Assembly (NCBI RefSeq): GCF_009834535.1
Contig: NC_045696.1
Location: forward strand, 74,464,001 to 74,528,000
Direction of reading: 5' to 3'
Source of the DNA: Camelus ferus
Lineage: Eukaryota
DNA length: 64,000 nt
Shown: one piece after another, positions 10,699 to 49,462 of the stretch
How the letters are laid out: every line of letters begins with the position of its first letter
Numbering within the stretch: position 1 is the stretch's first letter
Translations under genes and position numbers: made by a program
Notes under the pieces: generated by a model
What the model was told of the DNA's origin: nothing
Database searches by the model: none
Seen by the model: only the letters and a program-made list of their open reading frames with translations

Positions 10699-10764
10699 GT
10701 AGTAGGTGTAACCTTGAAGAAAAAGTGGCACTGTCTTCAAAAAAGTGACCTGACCCTGGCTTTG
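10699..10764 (+). CDS. PEX5L: PEX5L alternative exon 3b, VVGVTLKKKWHCLQKSDLTLAL (66 nt, phase 0-0)
   Basis: Acceptor ctctttcAG at 10697-10698, branch point ACTAAC at 10671-10676, donor GTGGGT at 10765. The frame is open and the peptide matches the TRIP8b exon 3b insert as I recall it. Confidence 0.88.
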
Positions 10765-13068: not shown

Positions 13069-13173
13069 GGAAAAGGCTCTAGGGCGGCAGATAAGGCTGT
13101 TGCCATGGTGATGAAGGAGATACCGAGGGAGGAGTCTGCTGAAGAAAAGCCCCTCCTTACTATGACATCACAG
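13069..13173 (+). CDS. PEX5L: PEX5L exon 4 (alternative), GKGSRAADKAVAMVMKEIPREESAEEKPLLTMTSQ (105 nt, phase 0-0)
   Basis: Acceptor tgttatAG, donor CAG|GTGGGC. The peptide matches TRIP8b and contains the acidic dileucine-type motif EEKPLL. Confidence 0.97.
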
Positions 13174-19150: not shown

Positions 19151-22100
19151 AGAAAGGCCTTTGAACTAATCTAAATATTGAGAAGAGGACAAAGAAGGAT
19201 AATAAAGGAACATTTTAAATGTAAACAAAGTGAGACAAAGGCCTTAGCACCTAATGAAGTGGGTCATTTTAATTCATTTATGGTAATCCGAATGGACCAA
19301 AATTGCAGCCATTCCAACTTAGTTATTCAAGAAAACATGGGAACCACTTCACTCACCTTCTATTATTGTTATAACATCAACGTACTCTGTACCAAAAGGA
19401 TGAAATGAGGTAAGTTCACAAAGGATTTTCAAACTGAAGGAAGTAATTCTTAGAGAAAGTCAATAAGCTGTATCCTACCCATAAACAGAGACAGAATAAA
19501 AGGCACACAATTTGGAAGTAAAACTTGAGCGAGCTATGTAGGGGATTCTGTTCAGTTTGCGATATTCCTTTATGACCTAAAAGATTTACTCATTCTCAAG
19601 TCACTGTAGGGAAATCATAAATTTGTTTGAAAATGAGAAGGGGACATGTGAAAAGCTATTCTTAGCTATATAAATAAAATAAAACAGGACTTAGTGTGGC
19701 TAAAATAATGATTCCTAAATTCATCAGACTGAAGAGAGTTCAAAATTGGACTGCTTAAGATGGATAGTTTTGTATCTTCAGTTTCTGCAGAGTCACTATC
19801 CCTCTTGGTAGCCCTTTGTTGAACCCCTCTTCTATGAAGACATTTGATTCCAAGAAATATAAGTAAGACATAGCCTCTGACCTCAGAGCTTATAAGAAAA
19901 GATTTTTTCATGATATCTCCTCTTTCGTCTTCCATATCGCCATCAAAACTGAAAAACCATCAGTTCCCAAATTACCTCTCCATGTGATCTGAAATCCAAC
20001 CCTTCATCTTCTTACCCCAAACCCTGCCGCTGTCCCCTACTCCAATCTTGGCATTTACCAACAGATAAACTGTGCTCCAGCTTGAAAAACACGGACTCAC
20101 AAAGAAATGCGTTGTTTCCTCTTTGACTTGTGTCTGTGGAAGAAAGCCAGAGGAACAGTTCAGTTATGGGAACTGGGCAGCATAACAACTCCATCAGCCC
20201 AGGTGTGACGTGTGGTCACAAATAAGACAGGAGGTGTGGAACAGACACAGGCCTTAGGAGGCAAATGCTTAGGAAAAGACTGGAGAAGCCATGCCTTAGT
20301 CCTGGATTCCCTAGGATCTCTGAACAAACCTCCTCTTTGGTGTTCTTTTCTGTCCATGCTGAGAACATATGAGAATGCCAGAGATGCTTTCTCCAGATAA
20401 TAAGGCTAAAGTCTGAATGAAGAGAGAGACTCCCCAAAGTAAGAAAAAAAAAATTCTATTACCTTTGGTAAAGCAGACTTGACTAAAAGGATAGGCCTTT
20501 CCATTAATTGTGCCTTTTCCTTTGTTTTTCCATTTAGGTGTTTATGTGGACAAAGGTTTTACTTTCTAGAATTCTTTTATCAAATTTAGACTACCATTTT
20601 TCAGTGTTTACAACTGGAAGTGCCTATAGAAATCTAATATCCCGGTCTTCTAAAACTATAGGGAATTTGGGTCTATTCCACACATCTACTCAAAGAGCTA
20701 TGATTTGGAAAAAAAACTGTTAGTCCTTTTTTTACAAAGGAATTTAATTGTATCCAAAGTAAAGAAAAAGCATAAGGGGCTTTTTGTGGAATATAAATAA
20801 TATTTATCTTTACATAATAGTTGATATTTCTCCACACTATGGCTAAGAGAATAACTAAACTTTTTTAGTTATCTATGAATAAAATCAGATTTCTTCTTCA
20901 GAGAAATAACGGCTAACAAAGAGATAGTTATGACATCACACGTGCATATTTATACGTATTTTAAAGTCGCAGTTTTGTTGGTTGTATTGAGTCTTTGCTC
21001 CGTATACACTTGAGCCTAGGCCAGGAAGACCTAGAACCAGACCTCAGATAATTTGATTCCTAGAGAAATCTGTGAGTCTTTATACCAAGTAACACCAAAA
21101 CTTACAATACTTGAAGAAATTTCTGTCTCCGTGATTTGAATACTAAAAGAAAAATGAGCATTCTCATTACTTAGCCCATGATAATGTGCACAAATTAATA
21201 TGTATGAAAATCAAATTGCCAATTCTATGTGAAAATGTTAGACTCTAGCGAAGAGCTGAGATTTATTTAAAGATAATAGTGTGAATATATAAAAGTACCA
21301 AATGTGCCTCTTGGTTTTCAGTCCCCAAAGGATCACTGAAGGTTTCCATATTCCTCCTTCAGCAATAATAGAATTGCATTTTTTTCTTCCCATATTTACC
21401 ATTATTTAGGTCTCTTGCCATCTTCCATAAGCTTTAAGCTATAATACCACTATAATATAAAAACACTGTGCCAGAGAAATAATGATGTGAAACTGAGTAC
21501 ATATAAAATATTTTGATTTGGCAATACTCCAAAACCATTTGTTATTTTGCATGTCTCTTAAAATACAGCCGTGCAAATAGGTATTTAAAACCCTAGAGGT
21601 TTTTTGACACATCTTTTTTTATAACAAGTAGAAAACTAGGCGGCTATGCCCCTTTTAAGAAAGGCCTATATAAAAACTCCCAAAAAACTAAAGACAGTTC
21701 GTTTAGGAACTAATCACTTGTGTATCTTGTGTATTTTTTCTCTTAGCCATAGAAACAGAATTTAAGGATGTTTGGATTCAAAGAGGTGCAGAGTAACTGC
21801 AAGTAAATAGTTGGCTGCCACTGATAATGAGGTCTAATAAAAATCAAACTGAAAGATTTCTGAAATTAGAGAACAAACCAATGGGGAGATATAATTGAAT
21901 TTACAGAAATCTATCCTACATACAGATTTTCACAAACATATCTACTGGATACTTGTACAGTTAATATAACATTTTCTACTCTCTCAAAATAATATTGCTT
22001 ATACACTATTGAAAGCATTCCAAGGATATGTAAGGAAGGGTGTATACCTTTAGGTGACTTGAGCTTTTTGAGAGCAGGAGAAAAAGAGCATGTATCCACA

Positions 22101-22550
22101 CACACGGATCTGTGTGTGCTCTTAGCACATAGCACTGACTGACCAGCCCTAGCCAGAATGTGTCACCTCAAGATCTGAAGTCACTGTTTCCAGACTCAGT
22201 AGGAGTTTGTCATCCAAGTAAAAGTGGGACTGGCCCTTAGGTACTGTGATTCACTAAATGTCAGTTTCTGCATATTGAAATTACAGAATAATCCTCAAAC
22301 TGTTCTAGGAGGAGAAAAAAAGCTTGAGCTTTAAAAATTAAAGTTGGCTGCATCAAAAGTATGTTGACAATGCTAAAAGCCTCACTCCCCACCCCTTTTT
22401 TTTTCTTTCTCGCCCCTACCCCATTATTTATTGATTTATTTATCTTTTTGGTAGGCTTGCTATTCTCATTTTGTTGCAAGGCTGCATTTTAATTCATCTG
22501 ATTTTGCTGTTCAACAGTGCCCTTTGACACCTGTATTCATTTGTTCTCAG

Positions 22551-22662
22551 CTGGTGAATGAACAGCAAGAAAGCAGACCCCTCCTGAGTCCCTCCATCGA
22601 TGACTTTCTCTGTGAAACCAAGTCGGAGGCAATAGCAAGGCCAGTAACGTCCAACACAGCCG
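22551..22662 (+). CDS. PEX5L: PEX5L exon 5, LVNEQQESRPLLSPSIDDFLCETKSEAIARPVTSNTA(V) (112 nt, phase 0-1)
   Basis: Acceptor ttgttctcAG, donor G|GTAATT. Contains the dileucine trafficking motif ESRPLL. Confidence 0.97.
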
Positions 22663-23744
22663 GTAATTCTTTCACTTTTAACTGATCCTCAAGGAGAGTT
22701 ACTTTTCACTATAGAAAAATGGACAGTTTCTTTCCACAGTGTGTTTTAAGTGGAGAATAATGTTTGCAACCAAATGAAACTTTGGAACATACACAGTTCA
22801 ACATAAACCGATAAATCATTTTTCATTATATAAGAAACTTCAGTGGATGTTAAAGCAACCACTTTTGCTGAACACTAGAGTACCACAGTTAGCAATGAAT
22901 CTGCTTTCAATGCCTATTTTCCGATTTACATCTTCGCATCTCAAGTCACATCACATTAGGAAATCTTTCAAACAAAAGCATCTATTTCAGAGTAAGGATT
23001 GTCAAGTTCTGGCTAGAAATATTTTGTATGACAAAAGTCCAGTAAAATTAAAATATAGACAGCCCCTTCTGGTGGATTAAAATGACAATTAAAATGTCCT
23101 AGAGAGCTGGGAGATTATCCAGCCAATTTCATTTTTTTGACATGTAAATAAGTTACTTGCTCCCTCTTACGACAATTTACTTGAACATTCTTCTGAGATT
23201 AAAGACATTCAAACAGTAAACGATCTGTATAGGCACTAATGAGCAGTCATCCCATGAGTGAATGCGGGATGTCACTGGTATCAAGCACGCCTTCTCCAGC
23301 ATCCTCTGCACTTTCCAATTCTCACTGATGCGAAAACTAAGGCACTTAGGTAGGGCCAGCCTGAGGCTGCAACAGAAGATTTGACTCGAAAGCTACTTTT
23401 CACCTTCTGGGTCAGTGGCAGCCTTTCTGCATTGATCTCGTTCAGTCAACATTCACATTCAAAGGCATGTTGTTCAAATAGGAATGAAAAAAATAATGTC
23501 CAGAATCAAAGAACACTAGTCATGCTGGACTGCAGGAGAGAATTTAATGGGGAAAGGAGAGGATAATTACCTACTGTCTTGTTAAATTCATTTCATGTCC
23601 TCAGCTTGCTGTTTCCTGGCGTGGTTTTATTGTACTTTTAAGGAAGCGAAGAAAATCACAAGTGAAGGAAACTGTGGTTTTTAAGAAATGCTAAAAATTA
23701 CAACAATAAGAGTAACGCAAGATAGAGGGCACTTTATGCGGGAG

Positions 23745-23960
23745 TGTAGTCTACAGTCTCGAGTCAAACTTTGTGATTTCTAACCCCAGCTCTGCCACTT
23801 AGCAGCTCTGTGTCCTTGGGCAAGTTTCTTAACTAAGTCTATTTCCTCATCTGTCTAATAACAGTAAGATCTATATCTCTTAGGTTACTTGGGAAGATTA
23901 AATGAAGCAATTTATGTAAGCGCTTAAGCCCATGTAAGCTCTAACAGACGTTACCATTAC
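23745..23960 (+). mobile_element. MIR SINE
   Basis: ccccagctctgccacttagcagctctgtgtccttgggcaagtttcttaac..tttcctcatctgt..aagattaaatga. Confidence 0.85.
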
Positions 23961-24529
23961 TGTGAGATAGCGGGTGAAAACTGTACACCCAACACTTCCC
24001 TTTCCAAACGCATTAACTTTCTTTCTAACACACCAGAGTAATCATTTTCCAAATTCAGCTATCACTTTGAGTAATCAAGCCAATAAAAATGTACTTGGTA
24101 CATTTTAGGCAGGACATTAAACAAGTTCAGATACTATCAGGTCAGATTCATCCTCCTTCTTTATGAAACTGGAGACCACCCCTCCAAAACTGAGCTCCCC
24201 CCAGAAAAATACAGAGGAGCCCTGTGTCTCTAATTGCCGGAAAATCCATGAGCATGGGACACACTGAGAACTTCCCACTATTCTAGGAAAAAGCTGCCAA
24301 GCCTAATTCTCAGATCTGGATTCCAGCATCCTCTGCCCTTCTCAATGATGTTAAATCTGAGTCACATAGGAAGGGCCCACCAGAGAGAGCAACACAATAT
24401 CCGACTCAAAAGCTGCTCTTCACCTTGATTTTTCTAACATATGAAGGAGAGACCTGTGAAATATTGGAGGGAAAAAAATCAAAAGAATGTGTAATTTCTT
24501 GTGATCACACTGCCTACAGTATTGTCTCC

Positions 24530-24951
24530 TGTGTTAGTTTCCTAGGGCCGCCATGACAAAATCCCACACACTGAGTGCACTAAACAACAGAGATTGATGT
24601 CTCACAATTCTAGAAGCTAGAAGTCCAAAATCAAGGTGTCAGTAGGACTATGCTCCCTCTGAAGGCGGTTGGGAAGGATCTGTTCCAGGCCTCTCCCCTG
24701 GTTTCTGGTAGTTTCTTGGCTTGTGGCAGCATAACTCTGTTGGCACACGACATTCTCAGTGGGTGCATGTCTCTCAGTACGTGCCTCGGTCTCTGTGTCC
24801 AGATTCCTCTTTTTATAGGGACACCAGTCATACTGATTAGGGGCCCACCTTGTCTGACTCATCTTAACTAAGCTACATTCTGAGGTACTAGAGGTTAAGA
24901 CTTCAACATATGAACATATGAGTTTTAGGGGAACACAATTCAATCCATAAC
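24530..24951 (-). mobile_element. MaLR solo LTR (MLT1C-like)
   Basis: tgtgttagtttcctagggccgccatgacaaa..gctagaagtccaaaatcaaggtgtcag..ggaacacaattcaatccataaca. Confidence 0.88.
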
Positions 24952-27392
24952 ACCATCCAAAGTAAGACGTCAGGAAAAATGGTATGTTGAGACTGTGGGT
25001 TTTTTATTTCTCGACCTCAGCATTCAGTGCATCTGAGTCACACAGATTTTTATCCTTAAGGAAGACTGTAGATAGTGTGTTTTTTAATCTTGAAAACTTA
25101 TTTCAAGGCACACTGTATTTTGGTAATCCCTAAGGATTATAGTTCTTTTTAAAAATCATTACAAGCCCATAATTTATATCTCAGTATGCAACATAATTCA
25201 CATTATTCCACATTTTTAAACAGAAAAATTTTCAGCATACAAACACCTTGGAATCCTAATATGGTCCAATAATTTTATAGCTAAGGTTTCTGAGCAAAAG
25301 ATACAGTTATCATTTTCTGTCCAAATTTTTACTAAATAGTAATTTTAAATGGAACATCATCATTTTATAGAACAGTATGAAATTACATTGAGCAATTAGG
25401 ACAGTCGTTGAACATTAAGTGCCTATTATATCCCAAGCATTATATATGTCGTTACACTCAAGGAATGGATAGTAAACAATCCTGGAGTAAGTATGGGGGA
25501 AAACCTGCTTCAAGTTGTACCAAGTCAATCAAGTAGAAATTTGAAGAACCTTGTATCAAGATGAGAGGTTTTTATAGCTGGCATCTTCTTCCAATGAAGA
25601 AATAAACCAGTGTGCCACTATCTTGACAACTTCTTAAATATATAAAGAATATAGTTCTTATATAAATTAACACAAAATAAACAAGATAATTGTCTCTTCC
25701 AAAGGTCAGTCAAATGACAGGTTTTTTTCTCTACTGACCCTGAAAGAACTTATCAATCTCCTACCTCATATAAGCTCTAAATTGTAATTTTATTCTTAAG
25801 TATTTCAGTTATCTTTTTTACTTTCTGTTTGTTTCTAAATTAAAGATTAACTTTGGTCATCCAATGATGATAACTTCAAGCTGATCAAATCAGGATATTT
25901 TCCAATTTTTTTGCCTTTAACATTTTAAATTATCTTTAGTTCATCAGTAATCTAGATAGGTAACTAATTCCTTGGCCCTCTCAAGCTGTATCCCTAGATG
26001 GTAAGTAGGCCAAGATCATTGCTAATATCCTTGATTTTTAATGGCAAATAAATATATATTATATACTGATACATAGAGCAAATGCTCTGAAAGTAACTAG
26101 AAAGTAGCTGTTTTTAAGATACTGATTATATTATAGGACAAGTAATTACTATAAAACTTGCAATAATAACTTCTTGGTCTATAGTCTCCAAAAAGATCTA
26201 ATATATTTCAAAGTACAGGAAAGACTCTTTTCTAAAGAGCAAGAATAGGGGGTTCTTGGTTTGCATTTATCAATCTACATAATCTAAAAAAATTATCCAT
26301 AATCTTGAGCTATGAGGTGGACAATTACTATAGAAGAAATATTGTTCATGCTTTAAAAAAGAATAATATATTGGTATTATTGGTATGGGACCTGTATACC
26401 TGTCAAAGAGACCCCTATATAAAGGAAAAGCTACCCTTAACAAAGTTCACAATCCCATTAAAGCCACCTAACTGCAAAATTAGTGTAATACAAATACATT
26501 TAATTCCAAATACATTTTTATGAAGCCCAAATAGTCGTGAACCCAATGGCATGCCTCTTGAGAGAACTTAGAAATCTGGGAATTAGCCTTAATTACATAT
26601 TCCAATTAAAAGGCAAGAGTTGGTTGAATTATTTAAGTTCAATTTATCTATTTGACATCACTGGCAAAATGTTTCCTAAAGGAGTTTGCTCTGTAAGCAC
26701 TATATTAAAGAATTCCAAACTATACTTCAGTTTAAAAAAAATTTTTAAAGAATTCCATGTTTTCTGGAATGCCAGGGTAGCTTACAAATTGGGTGGCACA
26801 TTCTGTGACTACCCTGGTCAGGGCTGTCCCATGGTCTGTTCTCTCTGACCTACTCCTTGTAGATTTATTCCTTTAGAGAAAGTCACTAAAAATCTGAGGC
26901 TCATTATACTATAGTGATGTTAATAGCATTGCCATTGAAGTATCAAATCAGGGCTTCATCATATGTGCCATTGTATCCTAACTGTTGTAAGCAGCCTCAC
27001 CTCCCAAAGCCCAAGTAATGCAGTATTCATAAACATCTTCATTGCCATGTGGAGGCTTCCAGATTAATAGGCTGTGATCTTCAATCAAGTGTCCTTGAGA
27101 GAGATGGAAACAAACACTTACATAACATATTTCATCTTCTAGCTTCAGGAAATTACACCTAATGAGATTCGGTTACCAAAAAAAAGTTTCTGAGAGCACC
27201 AACTATTTAAATTATGCCTCAGACTACCCAAACTGGCAAATAATTGGTCGCTAAACAAAAAATAATCAAAGTCACATCAATAGTATCAGCACATTCCCTC
27301 CAAGTTCAGAAAAAGTCTAGAGAGGAGTGGTGAAGGGCACGGGCTTGCGGGTGGTGGGACTGTGAGTCCGGTGTGGATGCTGGCCTACCAGC

Positions 27393-27640
27393 TGTATTAG
27401 TTGCCTATTGCTGCTGTAACAAATTGCCACAAATCTAGTGGCTTAGAAAAACACAAATCTATTATCCTACAATTCTGGAGGTCAGCTGTCTTAAATCAAG
27501 ATGTCAAGAGGGCTGCATTCCTTCTGGAGGCTCTAAAGGAGAATTCATTTCCGTGCCTTTTCTAGTACCTGGAATTCCTTGGTTTATGGCCCTTTCTTCC
27601 ACCTGCAAAGCCAATAGCATAGAATCTTCAGGTTGCTCTG
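27393..27640 (-). mobile_element. MaLR LTR fragment (MLT1D/E-like)
   Basis: tgtattagttgcctattgctgctgtaacaaattgccacaaatctagtggctta..ttctggaggtcag. Confidence 0.8.
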
Positions 27641-27646
27641 TTTCCT

Positions 27647-27679
<33 letters not shown>

Positions 27680-27688
27680 TATACACAC
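27647..27688. repeat. (TC)n(CA)n microsatellite
   Basis: Direct reading. Confidence 0.95.
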
Positions 27689-27892
27689 CGTTTCACATCC
27701 ACTATAACAGGTGGTTAGCTTAAATAGAAACACAAATTCTGAAACACAAAGCTTCATGTGCCTAAGAGCATCTTTAAAATTGGGTTCAGAAAATCAGTAG
27801 AGCAGACGCCCTCTTCTGTGTCAAGGTATGCTGTCTTTGAAGCCCATGTGCAACAATGAAACCCTTTATTTTTGTCTTAACTAAAGCGCACA

Positions 27893-27893
<1 letters not shown>

Positions 27894-27932
<39 letters not shown>
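27894..27932. repeat. (CA)n microsatellite
   Basis: Uninterrupted CA run, about 19 units. Confidence 0.97.
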
Positions 27933-27934
<2 letters not shown>

Positions 27935-28957
27935 TAAAATGAGATTTATCTTTCTTAAGAAAGTGAAAGGCTGCACCCGTCCTTCTATGCTTTTGAAATT
28001 GTGTTCCCCGGGGACTCTCTCAGCTTCAAGGTTGCCATTCCACCTCCCAGCCACCCCCTTCATCAACTGGGTACCAAATAAGGCCTTTTGTGCCTGCCAA
28101 GCAGTTGTTTCACATTTGCTGGGAAAAGAACAAAGGAACAGAGAGCTCAGAACAAACGCAGGAAGTGCTGAGGACGTTTGGAGGGGAAAGATTGTTACTG
28201 AGCCAAGTTTGAATTCGCAATTCAGGCTTTTAGTAATTCATTTATTCTGAATGGTGAGAAGCAGATACAGAGTTAAATTAATGCTCATCAGTTATTATTC
28301 TGTAACAAATGTACTTCTATATACAAGCAGACGAGTCCTATATAATTTGCTTTTAAAAGAAGTGTAGGAGCTAGTGACTAATTCTTAATTGTTTGTACAA
28401 TTAGTAAAAAGACATATACAGCATTCCACAGACTGTCATCCACTTCCTTGCCTCTATTGTAAGGAAATCATGGTGGGCTGAGAATTCCTGCCAACGTAAT
28501 AGTGGCCTAGAAATTTCTATTTAAACATTCAAAGGATATGAAATGTGCGGCATCCTAGCTGACCCTGGCTGCTTGCTGCGCTTGCATTTTAGACATCAAG
28601 CCAGGCAGCTGAGCCTTGAAAGCCACTTCTTTCCCCCCAGATTCAAGTGCTTGCTCCCACAGAACACTCCTCATAGTTCAGAGCATCTTTCATTGGAAAG
28701 TGGCTCCCATTTCCTTAGGAAGACTCAAGTGAGATAAGCTGACACTTTCAGGGTGTTTTTTTAATAAATTTACTTCATAGCATCTTCTGTGGGACCAATA
28801 TTTTTGTCTCATCCTCCATCTTATTCCCACTGGTGTTTTTTCATTCCATCAGTGTGTAGACCTGATTCTTGCCTGAAATAGAGAAGAGTAGGGAAAATAG
28901 GAGATCAACAAAAAGGAAAAGGAAAGAAAAGCATCACAAATTGGCCACCAAAGAATA

Positions 28958-29150
28958 GAAATATTTACTGAGTACCTATGATATGCTGGCACTTTACACA
29001 TTTGACTTACAAATTAGATCATTTAATCTTCATGTCATACCTAAAGGACAGACTACTAATTCTGCATTTTTCAGCTGAGGAGACTGAAACTCAGAGAGGT
29101 CAAGAAACCCATTTGAAGCCACACAGCTAAGCAGTGGTAGAGCCAGGTCG
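28958..29150 (-). mobile_element. MIR SINE
   Basis: atatttactgagtacctatg..catttaatcttca..tgaggagactgaaactcagagaggtcaag..cacacagctaag. Confidence 0.85.
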
Positions 29151-29344
29151 TTCCACTTCACCATCAGCTTCAAACCATTGTGATTTGTAATTGAAGTCAG
29201 AAAGCAAGATTATTGAGAATAAAGCTTGACATCCTAAGGATCCCATGGGATTGGTTAGCTCATGATGAACGTACAGTACTAAAGAAATACTTGCTGTGAG
29301 CTCAGTTTAGCCCTGGCCCAGCCTTGAATGCAAGGGGGCAGTAG

Positions 29345-29453
29345 ATGGAAGAGCGTCGAGATGTCAGCAAAAATCCATCCACTCCCTACCAGGAGGAAAA
29401 GCCAGACATCAAAGAGGAGGAGGAGGAGCTGTTTGTAGACGGTGCTGGGAAGG
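29345..29453 (+). CDS. Candidate alternative first coding exon of PEX5L (MEERRDVSKNPSTPYQEEKPDIKEEEEELFVDGAGK + 1 nt)
   Basis: ATG at 29345, 36 open codons, then AGG|GTTAGC in phase 1, matching the exon 6 acceptor phase. Inferred from sequence only. Confidence 0.4.
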
Positions 29454-30441
29454 GTTAGCACGGGGAGTGTCCCTGTCACTTTGTTGGCTTTCCTAAGCTA
29501 GCCAGGTGAAGAGATCCTACGCCAAGAAGCCCACCAGCCCAGTTCAGAAGCCAGCCTCTCGGAAGGAGGGCTGGAGGGACCCTGTCTAATTGGAATTTTC
29601 CATTTCTCACAATGAGCTAATCAAACATCAGTTACTTGCACTGAAGAGAAAAAAGAATGAAGAGTTACAGAGCTTGCCTTTTTATTTCTCATTTGCCTAG
29701 TTTGCATTTGGACAAATTATTATTTCTGCCTTCATTAGAGTATTTAACACAATGTAATCAACCTGCTGGGAAGTAAAAGGGTAACCATTTTATGGTTTGT
29801 TACGTTGAAATTTGAATTTGCATATTAAGCAGCAAAGGTATTAACATGTGTACCTATTCATCAACTATGGATTGTAAAATACCTCTCTAGTGTGAGCCTA
29901 AACAGCAAGCCGTTTTCTGATTGAACTGCTTAATTAAATAAAAGATGATTAACAGTCTTCCTTTATACCCTGGATACTTCAGTAGTTTGAAGTGAAAACA
30001 TGAAGACATTTAGAAACTTTACCAAATCTTCGTCTTCACTGTCTGCAAGCATCCCTCTGAATATGACAGTTAGGCTGCTACCCCAGAAAATATGCCCTCT
30101 AAAATATGCCTCTTTATAAATAAAGCAAAGTCCATAAAGTAAATAGTATCTAAACTCATATTCAATTTTATCATTTTACTTTTGTTCAGACCTTCATCAC
30201 TGGGGAGGCTGGTCTAAGCCCTGTTTTGCGAATTTGTTACATGACAGCTGAAGGAGAGCATCCAGCCAGGTTCCCAGTCTAAATACAAACTGTCTTGATA
30301 AATCAGTGGGGAGCTAACTTAGTTTGGTGCTTCTTGCCTACTCTACAAACAAAATCCTTCTGCACCTAACCAAAACCTATTTTTAAAAAATAATCTGAGA
30401 GCAGTGAATGGGCTTATCTTAACCTCTTCCATCTCTGATAG

Positions 30442-30637
30442 TATTGACCACAGGCTTAGATCTCCTTGACCTGAGTGAACCCGTCTCTCAAACCCAAACC
30501 AAAGCCAAGAAGTTGGAGGCCTCAGTCGAAAACATCATCCCTCAAGAAAAAGACTGACGCATCTGACCTCATCAGTGCAGACGCTGAGCAGAGAGGTCAG
30601 GCTCTCCGAGGCTCGGACACGGCATCCTTAGACTTAG
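30442..30637 (+). CDS. PEX5L: PEX5L exon 6, (V)LTTGLDLLDLSEPVSQTQTKAKKLE..[+1 frameshift]..SKTSSLKKKTDASDLISADAEQRGQALRGSDTASLDL(D); 196 nt here versus 195 expected
   Basis: Acceptor ctctgatAG, donor TAG|GTAAGG. The 5' and 3' halves match TRIP8b in different frames; the supplied ORF 30475-30681 captures only the 3' half. Confidence 0.95.
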
Positions 30638-30829
30638 GTAAGGCGATAGCTTGTGTCTGCTACTGTTCACCCTTGCCTTGATGCAAGGAAGTTCTACAAA
30701 TGACATTAAAACCATGGGCAAAGCAGTCCAAAAGATGAATTCTATATCAGAAACTGGGCAGGACACACTTCTTTGTGCTTAGATTAAAGAGCAGTTGGGG
30801 AGTTCAACTTTGCAGAACTGGTGTGGATT

Positions 30830-30960
30830 TATTCATTCACTTACTTGACCCATGTGTATTGAGTTGTTGATAATGACAGGCACCAAACTAGGCACTGGAG
30901 TTACAGTAAAAATAAGACATGAATCTTGTTCTCTAGGAGCATTCAGTCTAGAGAGAAGAG
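30830..30960 (-). mobile_element. L2 3' fragment
   Basis: attcattcac..tattgag..aggcac..ctaggcactggag..ggagcattcagtctag. Confidence 0.65.
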
Positions 30961-31057
30961 AGTCTAGAGAGAGAGAGAGAGGAAATGCTAACCCAAGTTC
31001 CAGGAACAGCCAGACGAGACAGTCACATGTAACATGCATGGGGATACACCCAACACA

Positions 31058-31270
31058 GTAATAAGAGCTACCGTTTATTGATGGCCTACAATACCCAGAA
31101 CTGTGCTACATGATTTACATGTATGAGCCCATTAATTCATCACAACACTTTAAAATGAGTGAGGAACCAAATTTGCAAATTTAAATAACTTTGCCCAAGA
31201 CTCAGTTAGTATGAGGAAGAGCTAGAATTGGAGCCTCGCTCTAACTAACATCAAAGCCCGTACTTCTCTC
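31058..31270 (-). mobile_element. MIR SINE
   Basis: taataagagctaccgtttattga..cacaacac..taactttgcccaag..agagctagaattggagcct. Confidence 0.7.
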
Positions 31271-31502
31271 CATTGCACGTCTTCCTGAGAAAGGAGGCCT
31301 TAACCTCAGCTCATGGAACCAGTCAAAGTAAGCTCTCCTTTCTTAGGAGAACAGTGGCAGATCTTTCCGAAAACCAAGGGGAATGTGTATCTCTCCAGGC
31401 TGTGACTGACTGGTGGGTATGGGTATACATATGTGCATGAGGAAGTAGCCATAAAATGAGCATATTAGTAACTTTATCCACAAAGTTCTGAAGGTTAAAG
31501 GA

Positions 31503-31552
31503 ATATATATATATATGTGTGTGTGTGTGTGTATATACACATATATATATGT
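31503..31552. repeat. (TA)n(TG)n(TA)n compound microsatellite
   Basis: Direct reading. Confidence 0.9.
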
Positions 31553-31594
31553 AAAATCACTTAGCACTGTGATATATACATGTTAGATGGTCAT

Positions 31595-32645
31595 GAATTC
31601 ATTTATTCATTTGTTCAGTAAATATTTCTCTAAATAATTACTATGTTCCATACTATGTGCTGGAAATACAAAGATAAATAATATAAGCTCTCTGCCCCTT
31701 ATTAAGTTTACAGTCTAGTGGAGAGATAGAAAAAATTATTAAATGACTGTAATAAAATATGTCCTGTGTACTGTAATAAAGAAAAGCCCAAGTTAGTTAG
31801 TACATGAGCACCTTCATAGAGCCCCTGACCCAGCCAGGAGGTTGTAGAAGGTGTCTTATAGAAGCTGCTATGTGAGCAGAGTCTTGAAGGGTGAGTAAGA
31901 ATTTGCCAGACAAGGAAATATGGATCCGAGAGAGGTGAGGAGGAAGGGGCATGGCGTTCCTGGTGTAGAAGAGAAAGAAATGCACACACAAACACTGACA
32001 GATGTCTTTTCAAGTCAGTGCAAGTGTTGGCATCATAGTCAAGCATGAAGAGGAGTGAGAAATCAGGCTGAGAGTCACCAGGGGTCAGATAATGGGAGTT
32101 CTTGGATGCCATATCCTTAAGTTTGAGGTAAGGGCAGGGTTTAAAGGTTTTTTGCTTGGAGGAGTGACATCAACAGGTTCTATTTTAGAAAAATTTTTCT
32201 CTGGTGGGTGTGTAGAGAAAGGCATGGAAGCAGGGAGACCAATTCAGGCATCTAAGATAGTGGCAGAGGGGATAGTGAGAAGGAGACAGATTCAAAAAAT
32301 AAAATAAAATGAAACAGGATTTGTGGACTGAGTAGATGTATGTGTGCCAGCCAGGAAGACAAATAGAATGTGTCAAACTCTGTGATGAGGATACAGCGGG
32401 GAAAGGTGGGGAGGAGGAAGTCAAGGTAGAAATTGCTGAGTTCAGTTTCGAACCTGTCGTATTTTAGGAGATCGTGGGACTTCTCTGTGGAGATGTCCAA
32501 TGAACTGTTAGAAGTGTAGATCCAGAACTCAGGAAAGAGAACTGAGCAGGACATGGAGATTGGAAAGTCAGAGCATGGGACTGGGGCATCCATGATTTCA
32601 CAGTCATGGATGTAGATGAGCTCAACCTGGGGTGGATGGTGGAGA
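31595..32645 (-). mobile_element. L2 LINE, decayed
   Basis: attcatttattcatttgttcagtaaatattt tail; internal ggaagcagggagaccaatt, gtggagatgtccaa and tccagaactcaggaaagag. Confidence 0.8.
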
Positions 32646-33617
32646 AGGGAAGAGAACCAGCGCATTGTGCAAACCAGCTGCTCACACAGGCTCCCCTCTC
32701 CTCTGCCATGCCCCTCTTGGAGACCTCTCTTTGGAGGAAAACCTTATAACTATCTCCGACACTTCCTCACCATCCATGAGTTCTACGTTTATTCCATTTC
32801 AATCAATGAAATTTATACATGTGCATAGGATGTACTGTTAAATACATTACAATACAATAAACATGTAAATGAAATTTTCACTTCTCTGCTTTTGAGAAAA
32901 TGTCCTGTGAAGAAGTCAAACAAATTCTTATTTAAAGTTCTTTGGAGGGCATTGACAGCAAACCCAGCTTTTCATAGATGAAAAAATTGACCCCCAAGGT
33001 TGTTTAAGTGGATTGTTCACAGTCACACACCTGTTAATGAGAGAGAGCCCAGCCAGGTTCTTTATCTGTAAGAACAGAGCCACAGGGAGAAAACGGCTCT
33101 CGCAACTCTCAGCTTTCTCTGTCACCTCCTTTCTCTCTATTTCCATTATAAATTCCCTTCTTTGGTGAAAAATTAAGTAGTCTATAACAAAAACTGTGAA
33201 ATGTGTTCCAGTTTCTTCCCACTTCCTTTTAACAATGATATTCATTCTGTTCAACAGAATCTCTTTCTAGAAATGTGCCAGAAGTATCTCAAAGCCGCCT
33301 CCTTAGCTGTTAGCCCATTATCAACCAGACGCCATGCTTTCATACACAGAATGCAGAATGCACATACCTCTTGAGATAAATTCAGTTTAAAAAACTGGAT
33401 TGTTTAACTGTAAAAACAATCTAATTTCTCTTAATAGATCTCATTTATTTAGCTGCAAGCATTTTAATTACCTTTGGTCTTGGGGTTTGAGAGCATTGGT
33501 TAAGTAAAGTTCACTTGTATGAGACTTCTTGGTCTTAATCAATCTCTCTTCTTCTCTTTACACCTTGTATTCTCCTCCTGTTCCCCCCTCTTCGTCCCCT
33601 TCCTATATACTTAGCAG

Positions 33618-33741
33618 ACATTCAAACACAACTGGAAAAATGGGATGATGTTAAGTTTCATGGAGATCGGAATGGCAAGGGGCATCCCATGACAGAGAGA
33701 AAATCCTGCTCATCTAGAACTGGGTCAAAAGAACTTTTATG
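33618..33741 (+). CDS. PEX5L: PEX5L exon 7, (D)IQTQLEKWDDVKFHGDRNGKGHPMTERKSCSSRTGSKELL(W) (124 nt, phase 1-2)
   Basis: Long polypyrimidine tract, TAGCAG tandem acceptor, donor ATG|GTAAGA. Confidence 0.97.
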
Positions 33742-33776
33742 GTAAGATATTTTAATATCAGAAAAGAGTTATTTAT

Positions 33777-34193
33777 TTCAACCATAAAAAAGAATGAAAT
33801 TTTGCCATTTGCAGCAACATGAATGGACTTTGAGGGCCATATAAATGAATTAGTCAGGCAGAGAAAGACAAATACTGTATGATATCACTTATATGTGGAA
33901 TCTAAAAAATACAACAAATTAGTGAATATAACCAAAAAAAGAAGCAGACTCACAGATACAGAGAACAGACTAGTAGTTACCAGTGGGGAGAGAAGGAGAG
34001 GAGCAATATGGGGGGTGAGGGAGTGTGAGGTACTAACTATTGGGTGTAAGACAGACTACAAGGATGCATTGTACAACACAAGGATGATAGCCCATATTTT
34101 GTAATAGCTATAAATGAACTATAACCTTTAAAACTTATATAAAATATTTTTAAAATTTTTAAATGGATAAAAATTTTTAAAAACTAAAAATAA
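33777..34193 (+). mobile_element. 5'-truncated L1 3' end with target-site duplication
   Basis: ccataaaaaagaatgaaattttgccatttgcagcaacatg..gagaaagacaaatactgtatgatatcacttata, A-rich tail, TSD agaaaa(g/t)agt(t/c)atttat at 33760-33776 and 34194-34210. Confidence 0.92.
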
Positions 34194-34587
34194 AGAAAAT
34201 AGTCATTTATGCGTCATGTACTCTAATACTGAAATAGCCAATGAACTCAGTCAATCCAGATTCTTGTTGCCATTTACAACCCCCTATTTATCAATGTTAA
34301 TTTTTGTGGCTTCTAAAACTAAATTATTTCATCCGAATTGCTAAAAATTCAGCCAGTTAGGATTTTGGTAGATTCATAATTCAAAATTCAGTATTTGTTC
34401 AATCTTTGTTGATAATTTTGTAAATATGTAACTGGGTGACCAATCAAAACAGGTGCACATGTATGTTTACATATGTGTGTGTATTCAATGTATTGTATGA
34501 ATGGTAGTTAAATGTTTCTGGCTACACAGATAATCTTTTCTGACTTTCTTAATCATCACTGTCAGATAATGCACTAAGAAGAATCCA

Positions 34588-34690
34588 AGAATCAGCGGTA
34601 GAGTACATGCTTAGTCTTGGGTTCAATCCTCAGTACCTCCTTTAAATAAATGAATACAAACCTAATTACCTCCCCCTGCCCCCACAAAAA
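34588..34690 (+). mobile_element. 5'-truncated Vic-1-like SINE
   Basis: tcagcggtagag..gggttcaatcctcagtacctcc..aaacctaattacctcccc; TSD aagaa(g/t)aatcca at 34576-34587 and 34691-34702. Confidence 0.8.
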
Positions 34691-35192
34691 AAGAATAATC
34701 CATGGGTGCCCATGAGAAAAACTAGCCACTTGAATTTTACCATGTTTTTAAAGCTTCCTAAGGGACGGCATGTTTCAGTTTCCTGTTGCCCCTCACACAT
34801 CTCCATTTATTATGACATCCAAATTCTAAATAAAGATCAAATCTCACTGAGGCACTTTATGAGAAAGCTCCCTGCTCCCCCAGAATTACTTTTTTAATGA
34901 AGCAGAACTTTCAATAACAAAAATGGCATTGCATTTATTTACTTTTTACGCATAACTGGACTGAATTCTAAACCAAAGACAATAATACCTAGCACACTGC
35001 AGCCTTAAATTCCACTTAAATTCCAAACATGATCATTATAACAGAAATATATGTTATCTTTTTCATCAAAAGGCTGATGAGAGCTTTGTGACCATGGTTC
35101 TCGGTGATCCAAATTCGCCGAGTTTCTTGGCTGGGTTTCTAGCTGAATTTGCTTGTCGACGTACATGACTCTCCTTCATGCGTCCCTTATAG

Positions 35193-35289
35193 GTCCTCAG
35201 AGCACAGATCTCAACCAGAACTGAGTGGTGGGAAAAGCGCCTTGAACTCTGAGTCGGCTTCGGAGCTGGAATTAGTGCCTCCAACACAG
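35193..35289 (+). CDS. PEX5L: PEX5L exon 8, (W)SSEHRSQPELSGGKSALNSESASELELVPPTQ (97 nt, phase 2-0)
   Basis: Acceptor tcccttatAG, donor CAG|GTAACA. The peptide matches TRIP8b. Confidence 0.97.
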
Positions 35290-35714
35290 GTAACAAAACC
35301 AACTCCTCAATGTACCTGTCTTTTATAATCATAAACATTTTATTTAAATTTTCACAGAAAAGGTTGAAGTGTTTCTTCTGTATTTTGTATTTCATGTACT
35401 TTCTCACTCAGCATCTGTCTCAATGCTTAAACTGATGACTCAGATAGAGAGAAGGATAGATTTGGCTGGAAAATGTGTCGCTGAAGTCACTTTGTACCTA
35501 GCACTTTTTCCTTGTTATACCACCTACTGTTCCATTATTTTTCAATACAAAATCTGTTCTACTGCACCGTTAGCACTATTTATATAACAGACCCAAGTAG
35601 AAGGAAATTACGTCTTGAGCACTCATCACATTTATGCCCTGCAGACCAAGGCACGTACACATCAGGAACATGACTGCTAAGGAATAAATAATTACAGCAC
35701 TAGCCGTCATGGTA

Positions 35715-35950
35715 AGACTAAGAGCGACATTTGAGAGGACCCACTAAGTATTAGGGACTTTACTATGTGCTTTTCATATGTTACATCTAATACCTAAGTA
35801 ATCCTGTGAATTAGCATTAGCCTCACTTTAAAGGTCTTTGAAGAATCTTGGTGAAGTCAAAATCCTTTTCTGGGGCGCCCAGCTAATCACGGGCAGAAGC
35901 AGGGTGTGAACCAGACCCGTCTGTCCGCTACTCGACCCTTGACTCCAGTG
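35715..35950 (-). mobile_element. MIR SINE, degraded
   Basis: catttgagaggacccactaag..cagctaatc..ggcagaagcagggtgtgaacc. Confidence 0.55.
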
Positions 35951-36234
35951 TAACTGTCTCGTCTGTAACTAGTTGCCACTATGGTGAGGGCTGTGCCAAG
36001 CAGGCCCAAGGGAGTCTCAATCTTTTCATTTGCTCAAACACTTTACAAGGGTACAGCCTTGGTCTAAAACCGTAAAGATCTCTTAAGAAATGTGTCCACA
36101 TTCATGCATCTACCATATAGTTGGCAAATAAGTGGGATGAAATGAGCAAGAGAGATTTTCTTGAGTTTACTAGATAAGATATTGAAACTAAGAGGGGAGG
36201 TGTAGTGTCTGGGATGAAGTAAAGGCTTAACTCT

Positions 36235-44315: not shown

Positions 44316-44411
44316 GCTCGACTGACCAAGGAACAGCGCTGGGGAAGCGCTTTGCTTTCCAGAAACCACTCCTTAGAAGAGGAATTTGAAAGGGCAAAAG
44401 CAGCAGTGGAG
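44316..44411 (+). CDS. PEX5L: PEX5L exon 9, ARLTKEQRWGSALLSRNHSLEEEFERAKAAVE (96 nt, phase 0-0); start of the core that binds the HCN cyclic-nucleotide-binding domain
   Basis: Acceptor tttatttcAG, donor GAG|GTAACT. Contains the conserved RNHSLEEEF motif. Confidence 0.98.
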
Positions 44412-48330: not shown

Positions 48331-49257
48331 AGATAATTGTTAATTGCCTAATGTGAACAACACTTCTATCTATTGTTTCCTATAAAGGGCCATATCGCCT
48401 TCTGATGTAATTTAGTGTTTGCATTTTCACAGCTGATGTAAACAATTTCATCTGTGGCGTGCAGGTTTCTGCCAGGGACTGTGCTGAAGTGTCTGTGGCT
48501 GGTCTTGGTCTCAGTGTCGGTCAGTGAGATGCATTTATAACAATGCGGGTAACACCAGCCCATCGTGCCATGGAATAACGTTAGGCATGTTTTATATTTT
48601 GCGTGGAACAAACTAGTCAATATTTACACTACGTAATACCCGACAATATGCAATTCAACTAACATTGAGCTCAAATGCCCTAAAATACAATCTTTTCTGC
48701 TAGAGGGAAGGCAATGAGCACCACGTGCACACTGATTGCATGTCTTCAGTGACCTGGAAACCTGTTCAGGTGCACAAGCTAACATTGTTCAAGTGCAAGT
48801 TGAACGGTTAGATCTAGCAAGGCCTTGTATGGGTGAACCTTTTTGCCTCCATACCTTACATTTTATTGAAAAATCACTGAAAATTCATCTCAGCTTTAAA
48901 GTATTGTAAATTTTAGGACAAAGAGCCAAATATTTCTATTTTGGGGCTTTAAAAAAAAAAAAGCCTCTTTCCTGGAGGGACTTCCTCCATGCCTCCTCCT
49001 GGATTTTCTTCCTAGCCCGCAGCCTAAATGCACCATCAGCTACAATGAGTTCCCTGGGAAAGATGCACAGGGAGGCGCAGGAGGGAGAAGCCGGGAGAAG
49101 CCCCAGAGGCTCAGTAAGGCCTAGAGAGAACTATGCTGCATCCGCGGAGGCGAGTGGAGGTCACGTGGGCAGTCAGCACACCCACACCCACACATCAGGA
49201 AGACCTCTCATCACTGTTAGGGAGGGAGGGAGCCAGGCAGCATCTGGTACTGTGTTT

Positions 49258-49462
49258 TTTTCTGTTTTGTTTTCTTTTTTTTTTTTTTTTTTTCATTAAA
49301 GGATATTACAAGATACTGAACTTAGTTCCCTGTGCAATACAGAAGAAACTTTTTAACCTATTTATATATATATATTGGCTAACATTTGTAAATTTCAAAC
49401 TACCAAATATTCCCCCCCACCCTTTCCCCAGTAACCATAAGATTGTTTACTCTGTGAGTCTT
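49258..49462 (-). mobile_element. Young, short 5'-truncated L1 3' end with perfect 15-bp TSD
   Basis: poly(T) tail then L1 3'UTR (ttacaagatactgaac..agttccctgtgcaatacag..gtaaccataag); TCTGGTACTGTGTTT at 49243-49257 and 49463-49477. Confidence 0.9.

What the first reader, a model, noticed from the sequence alone, without database searches (positions are those of the whole stretch)
29345..29459. Candidate alternative first coding exon about 1 kb upstream of exon 6
Seen: a GC-richer, CpG-retaining stretch with no repeat I recognise has tagATGG at 29345 opening MEERRDVSKNPSTPYQEEKPDIKEEEEELFVDGAGK, then one G and GTTAGC at 29454. Splicing to 30442 gives ...GAGK-V-LTTGLDLLDL in the exon 6 frame. 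An in-frame TAG directly precedes the ATG and there is no polypyrimidine acceptor, which fits a first exon. Inference: such an isoform would lack the exon 4 and exon 5 dileucine motifs and gain an acidic N-terminus with IKEE plus an acidic tract, a SUMO-consensus-like motif. The phase match has a 1-in-3 chance of being random, and the donor and Kozak context are only moderate.
Basis: partly seen in the sequence, partly recalled or inferred. Interest (0 to 1): 0.7.

Follow-up and report, generated by a model that had tools for sequence, protein, structure and literature searches.

The report
Unproven exon in camel PEX5L intron
A short reading frame in intron 5 of a camel's PEX5L (TRIP8b) gene would join exon 6 in frame if it were spliced, but it is most likely ordinary intron DNA that only looks like a first exon: the one database record that uses it appears to be a faulty automatic gene model, and no RNA junction has been shown.

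Summary
The letters are as described: ATG at 29345, 36 open codons, GT at 29454, in phase with exon 6. The host gene is PEX5L/TRIP8b of a Camelus species, and the stretch lies in intron 5. It is not the known testis exon 1c, which joins exon 10. The signals are weak: its donor scores below the six real donors scored, the -3 base is T, and an out-of-frame ATG lies 17 bases upstream. Equally good configurations occur about once per strand and phase in this window. Of 330 fetched PEX5L-type proteins, one carries the peptide: EPY81933.1 of C. ferus. That model skips exons 7-9 and adds an orphan exon, so it is likely an automatic prediction. No junction reads or orthologous DNA were obtained. One study's runs hold more of the stretch than exon 6 explains, but the place is unknown. 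Verdict: most likely a chance look-alike (0.62); a real coding first exon about 0.12. Separately, exon 6 carries one extra base here, probably an assembly error.

The parts
29345..29453 (+). Candidate first coding exon: ATG, 36 open codons, one base, then GT. Most likely intronic.
   Evidence: Identical to residues 1-36 of EPY81933.1.
29454..29459 (+). Candidate donor AGG|GTTAGC; weak
   Evidence: Score 0.92 against 2.4-5.9 for six real donors; 92.8th percentile of all GT in the window (weight table recalled and approximate).
29328..29438 (+). Out-of-frame upstream ATG with a 36-codon frame that overlaps the candidate start
29414..29428 (+). (GAG)5 run that supplies the acidic tract
   Evidence: Only run of 4 or more GAG on the + strand of the window. 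The codon score falls from 0.27 to 0.07 without it.
29371..29392 (+). Pyrimidine-rich CAG acceptor inside the candidate; a second one ends at 29167
   Evidence: C+T fraction 0.75. All 6 cassette versions tested shift the frame or bring a stop.
29506..29511 (+). Stronger donor CAG|GTGAAG, 52 nt downstream and past the stop of the candidate frame
   Evidence: Score 3.79; stop at 29456.
28960..29160 (.). Old SINE of MIR type, ending about 190 nt before the ATG
   Evidence: Label and bounds recalled from the look of the sequence; no repeat library was available.
10699..10764 (+). PEX5L optional exon 3
   Evidence: tblastn, 100% to P0012 residues 8-29.
13069..13173 (+). PEX5L exon 4 (35 aa, holds EEKPLL)
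22551..22662 (+). PEX5L exon 5 (holds ESRPLL; exon 5 carries the tested dileucine motif); phase-1 donor
   Evidence: role from PMC7153792.
30442..30637 (+). PEX5L exon 6, 196 nt here with one extra base near 30525; a second acceptor at 30453|30454 is used by EPY81933.1
33614..33741 (+). PEX5L exon 7; in-frame Met at 33689 corresponds to the start of the annotated 434-aa short form
35193..35289 (+). PEX5L exon 8
44316..44411 (+). PEX5L exon 9; by position it holds the first part of the HCN CNBD-binding site (inferred)
   Evidence: Site given as residues 235-275 of mouse 1a-4 in PMC7153792. Exon 10 was not found in the window.

Best explanation
The stretch is most likely ordinary intron-5 DNA of the camel PEX5L (TRIP8b) gene that is spliced out, and it resembles a first coding exon probably by chance. 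A somewhat GC-rich, purine-rich patch with a (GAG)5 run keeps one frame open for 37 codons, and a weak GT falls in the matching phase. The normal transcript would join exon 5 (ends 22662) to exon 6 (starts 30442). The same look likely attracted an automatic gene finder, which explains the single record EPY81933.1. Shown: the letters, the host gene, the weak signals, the chance rate and the make-up of that record. Inferred: that the record is an ab initio model, and that the stretch is not used in any tissue.
For: Donor below all six real donors scored; -3 base T; competing out-of-frame ATG 17 nt upstream. Three like configurations in this intron and nine on the + strand. With a codon-likeness filter added, the five control strand/phase classes give 1, 1, 2, 1 and 1 equal or better hits (one donor counted twice), against 1, the candidate, in its own class. 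The codon score is reached by 8 of 129 intronic ATG frames and 8 of 37 GC-matched ones, and mostly comes from the GAG run. Of 330 fetched proteins, 210 of the 242 with the exon-6 anchor have exon 5 directly upstream. The other 32 are unspliced or cut ORF calls from contigs, and none resembles the peptide (best score apart from EPY81933.1: 33 against 188). EPY81933.1 is named 'hypothetical', uses another acceptor, skips exons 7-9, adds a piece from 48432-48515 found in 1 of 330 proteins, and ends in a tail unlike the other camelid proteins. No TATA, CRE, GC-box, MYB or RFX match in 28700-29345. The review lists promoters a, b and c only, with exons 5-16 in all brain forms.
Against: No direct test was possible. 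The 330 proteins are a sample: 120 of 352, 120 of 281, 23 of 23 plus cluster members, with only 15 of 1437 members of the main cluster listed. A rare isoform could hide there. Three runs of one study, with small contig sets (85-144 million letters, RNA only by guess), hold 0.31-0.33 of the words of 29150-30700. Exon 6 alone gives at most 0.11; exon 6 plus a first exon reaching the left edge gives 0.27-0.32. Only 2.4% of same-size windows match it in both GC and CpG. The psi-K-x-E motif occurs in 3 of 102 comparable peptides. The peptide is identical in C. ferus, which says little between such close genomes.
Confidence: 0.62

Rival explanations
1. A real but minor alternative promoter lies here, and its first exon is in effect non-coding. 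It would end at the stronger donor 29505|29506, or be read poorly because of the two weak ATGs. The ATG frames at 29328 and 29345 would act as upstream ORFs, and protein would start at the exon-7 Met, giving the 434-aa form that keeps both HCN-binding sites but no N-terminal sorting motif.
For: Donor score 3.79 at 29506, within the range of the real donors. Exon 6 has no ATG, and the first in-frame Met is at 33689. Ten of 330 proteins are 434-aa forms, among them human isoform 8 NP_001243685.1. The word share of study P2, 0.31-0.33, fits exon 6 plus 29150-29505 (0.30-0.32). The gene is known to use an internal promoter in testis.
Against: I did not see the first exons of the 434-aa transcripts, so nothing ties them to this place. 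No core promoter motif beyond CCAAT matches. The P2 share is not located and may be DNA. The four runs on record as RNA lie at 0.5-0.8 of the background expected from their contig size.
Confidence: 0.15
2. One reading: a camelid- or tissue-restricted first coding exon 29345-29453 is spliced to exon 6. It would give a protein of about 560 aa with a new acidic N-terminus, lacking the exon-2 tyrosine and exon-4/5 dileucine motifs but keeping the CNBD-binding site and the TPR clamp. It would be predicted to dampen the cAMP effect on HCN channels without driving their internalisation.
For: Exact in-phase geometry and no acceptor at the ATG. Best codon score of the 17 phase-1 + strand configurations. 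GC3 0.58, like exons 4-6 (0.54-0.59). A deposited gene model starts with the same 36 residues. The P2 share also fits exon 6 plus 29150-29453 (0.27-0.29). Both HCN sites lie downstream.
Against: Weak donor, T at -3, overlapping upstream ATG and a better donor just past the stop. Chance rate about one per strand and phase. Absent from the nine camelid isoform records named PEX5-related and from all other fetched proteins but one. The deposited model is faulty elsewhere and picks another acceptor. In this assembly the frame ends after 74 residues.
Confidence: 0.12
3. Part of the stretch is a rarely included 'poison' cassette exon, for example 29393-29505 (113 nt), with the GAG run as a splicing enhancer. 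Inclusion between exons 5 and 6 would bring an early stop and likely decay of the mRNA.
For: Pyrimidine-rich CAG at 29392 (0.75) and a good donor at 29506. All 6 acceptor-donor pairs tested break the frame or carry a stop. Such an exon would leave no protein record, as seen.
Against: Pairs of moderate splice sites are common in long introns (general knowledge). No reads and no conservation data.
Confidence: 0.08

Closest known systems
TRIP8b/PEX5L alternative first exons 1a and 1b (review PMC7153792, passages and section 5 part 1 read)
   Same: Same gene. A short first coding exon that changes only the N-terminus while both HCN-binding sites stay.
   Different: 1a and 1b lie upstream of exons 2-4, and all their products keep exons 5-16. 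The candidate lies in intron 5 and would drop exon 5. 1a and 1b are cloned and tested; the candidate has no RNA support.
TRIP8b promoter c / exon 1c of testis (same review, citing Lewis et al. 2009, which was not held)
   Same: An internal promoter inside the gene that gives an N-terminally shortened transcript.
   Different: 1c is followed by exons 10-16, so it lies downstream of exon 9 (ends 44411), 15 kb or more from the candidate. The candidate is not 1c.
GenBank EPY81933.1, hypothetical protein CB1_000693004 of Camelus ferus (P0140)
   Same: Begins with the same 36 residues and the same donor, joined to exon 6.
   Different: Uses the acceptor 12 nt further in, skips exons 7-9, adds an orphan exon and an odd tail; likely an automatic prediction. 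It shows that the idea was deposited before, not that it is expressed.
434-aa PEX5L short form (human isoform 8, NP_001243685.1, and RefSeq models of other mammals)
   Same: What a non-coding first exon here would produce.
   Different: The first exons of those transcripts were not seen, so no link to this place is shown.

Membership tests
PEX5L/TRIP8b (host gene) | Exons in order that match PEX5-related protein | tested here: met
   Exons 3-9 map in order; exon 7 is 100% identical to camelid PEX5-related proteins.
PEX5L/TRIP8b (host gene) | C-terminal TPR clamp | tested here: met
   Shown on the camel protein P0002: TPR families above cut-off, PDB 4EQF at E 1e-242. These exons lie beyond the window.
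PEX5L/TRIP8b (host gene) | Unbroken frame through exon 6 | tested here: not met
   One extra base near 30525 in this window; intact in the alpaca, Bactrian, dromedary, wild camel, pig and zebu proteins checked. Read as a probable assembly error; not checked on reads.
Known TRIP8b first exons (1a, 1b, 1c) | Position: 1a/1b before exons 2-4; 1c before exon 10 | tested here: not met
   The candidate lies between exons 5 and 6.
Alternative first coding exon | ATG, open frame and GT donor in phase with the next exon | tested here: met
Alternative first coding exon | Signals stronger than intronic background | tested here: not met
   Donor 0.92, T at -3; about one equal hit per control class.
Alternative first coding exon | Junction reads to exon 6 and a transcription start upstream | tested here: inconclusive
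   Only word shares of runs were obtained, not their places; no reads were laid.
Alternative first coding exon | Conservation of ATG, frame and donor in other mammals | tested here: inconclusive
   No orthologous DNA found. At protein level 1 of 330 records, from the same genus.
Alternative first coding exon | Translation shown (ribosome footprints, peptides) | not testable with these tools
   No such data here.
CpG-island promoter (definition recalled: 200 nt or more, GC above 0.5, CpG observed/expected above 0.6) | CpG observed/expected above 0.6 | tested here: not met
   0.41 in 29345-29459; 0.27 in 29300-29600.
SUMO consensus site (psi-K-x-E with acidic tail; definition recalled) | Motif present | tested here: met
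   IKEE plus acidic run; 3 of 102 comparable peptides carry psi-K-x-E.
SUMO consensus site (psi-K-x-E with acidic tail; definition recalled) | Lysine is modified in cells | not testable with these tools
   Five papers hold both TRIP8b and SUMO. Listing only; two titles concern SUMOylation of HCN2, none that of TRIP8b.

The most novel reading that the evidence does not exclude
Camelids have a fourth TRIP8b promoter in intron 5, possibly active outside the brain. Its first exon replaces every known N-terminal sorting motif with an acidic, SUMO-ready head, giving an HCN-channel subunit that controls gating but not internalisation.
Probability: 0.12. Interest if true: 0.45.

Novelty: not a real feature. 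Interest (0 to 1): 0.14.

Why it matters
If the best reading holds, nothing new follows. It is an example of an intronic patch that likely fooled both a reader and a gene finder, and it flags EPY81933.1 as an unreliable model. If the exon were real, it would be a coding TRIP8b form that lacks exon 5 yet keeps both HCN-binding sites, which the review read here does not list. It would be a natural test of what the exon-5 dileucine motif does, a point the review calls unsettled. It could also bear on the reported salt-induced PEX5L mRNA in camel kidney, whose isoform that paper's passages do not give. Even then it is a new variant of a well-known mechanism in a gene with three known promoters.

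Tried and rejected
No whole genome is held for this window. The phmmer search of the 36-aa peptide against 1.84 billion representatives gave 0 hits. I reject this as evidence, because an exact match exists in the same collection (EPY81933.1) and was not returned. The ESM Atlas, Pfam, PDB and exact look-up gave nothing for the peptide. Two scans of metagenome contigs for host DNA of this locus found no confirmed match (0 of 251 and 0 of 592 pattern hits), so DNA conservation stays open. No reads could be laid on the stretch, so junction, start site and the exon-6 extra base stay open. The four runs on record as RNA ('reproductive system', one study; shares 0.21-0.30) first looked supportive. 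Their contig sets are 831-937 million letters, and the shares are 0.5-0.8 of what even genome-wide cover would give (assumes letters spread over about 2,000 Mb, as the DNA-like runs suggest). Identity with exon 1c was rejected by position. My first exon numbering was off by one and was corrected (note; script labels e4-e8 mean exons 5-9). In one search the exon-7 donor was placed one base off and is left out of the donor range. The repeat finder over 22000-36000 listed no repeat covering the candidate among those shown (20 of 34 direct families, 25 of 50 inverted pairs). A PEX5L primer of the camel kidney paper does not lie in the window. No fold or complex was predicted: a 36-residue acidic peptide without relatives would give nothing usable. 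Paper searches listed no paper on a PEX5L exon in intron 5 (listings only; most subscription papers are not held). Santoro 2004, Santoro 2009 and Lewis 2009 were not held.

Full report
OBSERVATION. A TAG stands directly before ATG at 29345, 36 codons are open, one G follows at 29453 and GTTAGC at 29454; unspliced, the frame stops at 29456. The next exon begins at 30442 in phase 1, so a splice would be in frame. The patch is mildly unusual: GC 0.52 and 3 CpG in 115 nt, matched in GC by 5.9% of same-size windows, in CpG by 8.4% and in both by 2.4%. CpG observed/expected is 0.41, so it is no CpG island. The acidic tract is a (GAG)5 run. By eye an old MIR-type SINE ends about 190 nt upstream (recalled label, no call).

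HOST GENE. The exon at 33617-33742 is 100% identical to camelid 'PEX5-related protein'. tblastn with fetched proteins maps exons 3-9 in order; exon 10 was not found in the window. The camel protein has TPR repeats and matches PDB 4EQF. Two diagnostic residues agree with C. bactrianus and not with dromedary or alpaca; the C. ferus model agrees at the one it covers. The candidate is thus in intron 5, and a product would lack the exon-4 and exon-5 [DE]xxxLL motifs. The exon-5 dileucine is the tested one (PMC7153792). Six of six proteins checked (four camelids, pig, zebu) read through. This would break every isoform that includes exon 6, so I take it for an assembly error; it was not checked on reads.

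IS IT MORE THAN CHANCE? With an approximate donor table (frequencies recalled), the candidate donor scores 0.92. Six real donors of the gene score 2.4-5.9, and a better donor (3.79) lies at 29506, past the stop. The -3 base is T, and an out-of-frame ATG at 29328 opens a 36-codon frame over the start. Configurations of ATG, 30 or more open codons and a phase-1 donor at least as good number 3 in this intron and 9 on the + strand, the candidate included. A codon model trained on the gene's own exons is weak (leave-one-out scores -0.40 to 0.49). It gives the candidate 0.27, reached by 8 of 129 intronic ATG frames and 8 of 37 GC-matched ones; without the GAG run the score is 0.07. With both filters, the candidate is the only hit among 17 phase-1 + strand configurations. 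The five control classes, however, give 1 of 10, 1 of 16, 2 of 21, 1 of 19 and 1 of 30 (one donor counted twice). About one such hit per class is the chance rate. In its favour, psi-K-x-E occurs in only 3 of 102 comparable peptides, a test chosen after the fact. The AG before the ATG lacks a pyrimidine tract, but two pyrimidine-rich CAG acceptors end at 29167 and 29392. In 28700-29345 there is no TATA, CRE, GC-box, MYB or RFX match; there are three CCAAT matches, one E-box and one short RE1-type word.

PROTEIN RECORDS. I fetched 330 PEX5L-type proteins: 120 of 352, 23 of 23, 120 of 281 and cluster members. Only 15 of the 1437 members of the main cluster were listed, so this is a sample. Of 242 with the exon-6 anchor, 210 have exon 5 directly upstream and 32 are unspliced or cut ORF calls from contigs; 88 lack the anchor. 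Exactly one protein, among those 88, carries the peptide: P0140, EPY81933.1, 'hypothetical protein CB1_000693004' of Camelus ferus (score 188, next best 33). It joins the same donor to a CAG 12 nt inside exon 6, skips exons 7-9, inserts a piece from 48432-48515 that no other of the 330 proteins has, and ends in an odd tail. I infer an automatic prediction. It shows that the stretch looks coding to software and that the idea is already deposited; it is no evidence of expression. It also voids the empty search, which missed this exact match. None of the nine camelid records named PEX5-related uses the stretch. Ten of the 330 proteins are 434-aa forms; those shown start at the exon-7 Met, and their first exons were not seen.

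RNA. Twenty of 24 listed runs hold part of 29150-30700; no reads could be laid, so only shares are known. Exon 6 alone would give 0.09-0.11; with a first exon from the left edge to 29453 or 29505, 0.27-0.29 or 0.30-0.32. The six best holders, likely DNA (about 2,000 million letters), hold 0.93-0.94. Scaled to that, the four runs on record as RNA ('reproductive system', one study) hold 0.5-0.8 of background and say nothing. Five guessed-RNA runs lie at 0.65-1.3 of background, and two further runs have shares under 0.2. Three runs of one study (85-144 million letters, RNA by guess) hold 0.31-0.33, five to eight times background. That fits a first exon but also any other 500-nt piece, or a reduced-representation DNA library. 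It is one study and unlocated: a lead only. Two scans for orthologous host DNA in metagenome contigs found nothing.

LITERATURE. PMC7153792 (passages; section 5 part 1) gives three promoters. a and b act in brain, with exons 5-16 in all forms; c acts in testis, with exon 1c followed by exons 10-16, and was not shown to be translated. The candidate is therefore none of these. Both HCN-binding sites lie downstream of exon 6 (the exon mapping is my inference). PMC8125662 (passages) confirms eleven brain forms and one testis form. PMC3883711 (passages) gave the exon-5 primer. PMC2780955 (passages) lists four brain PEX5L cDNAs without structure; its supplements were not read and may bear on first exons. 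PMC8972041 (passages and supplement rows) reports PEX5L mRNA in Bactrian camel renal medulla, FPKM 1.20 under salt against 0.006, with no isoform in what I read. The primary isoform papers were not held. Searches listed nothing on an intron-5 exon. Earlier scan notes had nothing on this DNA or gene.

MECHANISM AND VERDICT. Most likely (0.62) the stretch is spliced out with intron 5 and the resemblance is chance. Next (0.15) is a minor non-coding first exon ending at 29505 that would feed the 434-aa short form. A poison cassette such as 29393-29505 gets 0.08; all six pairings tested break the frame or carry a stop. Split-read counts and a mammalian alignment would decide among these. Interest 0.14; 0.45 if the coding exon proved real.

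Noticed in passing
window 30525: Exon 6 has one base more than the camelid, pig and zebu proteins allow, which shifts the frame to a stop at about 30555. Probably an assembly error; a real null allele is not excluded.
   Followed up: partly
window 49009-49269: An intron-9 segment matches the odd C-terminal tail of a white-tailed deer PEX5L-like model (P0139; 49% over 93 aa, E 8e-17) and holds three of the eight best codon-score ATG frames. Intron 9 is where the known testis exon 1c should lie (inferred); whether this is it was not tested.
   Followed up: partly
window 48432-48515: Piece used as an exon only by EPY81933.1, in 1 of 330 proteins; likely a prediction artefact.
   Followed up: partly
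window 30442-30637 and 33614-33617: Many fetched PEX5L models skip exon 6 altogether, although the review counts exons 5-16 as conserved. Exon 7 appears to have a tandem acceptor that adds one residue.
   Followed up: no
gene as a whole (PMC8972041): PEX5L, mostly a brain gene, is reported as induced by salt in Bactrian camel renal medulla (FPKM 1.20 against 0.006); the promoter used is not given in the passages read.
   Followed up: partly
window 29500-29590: The GC-richer patch runs on past the candidate, with a second short open frame rich in Lys, Pro and Ser after the 29506 donor; no explanation.
   Followed up: no
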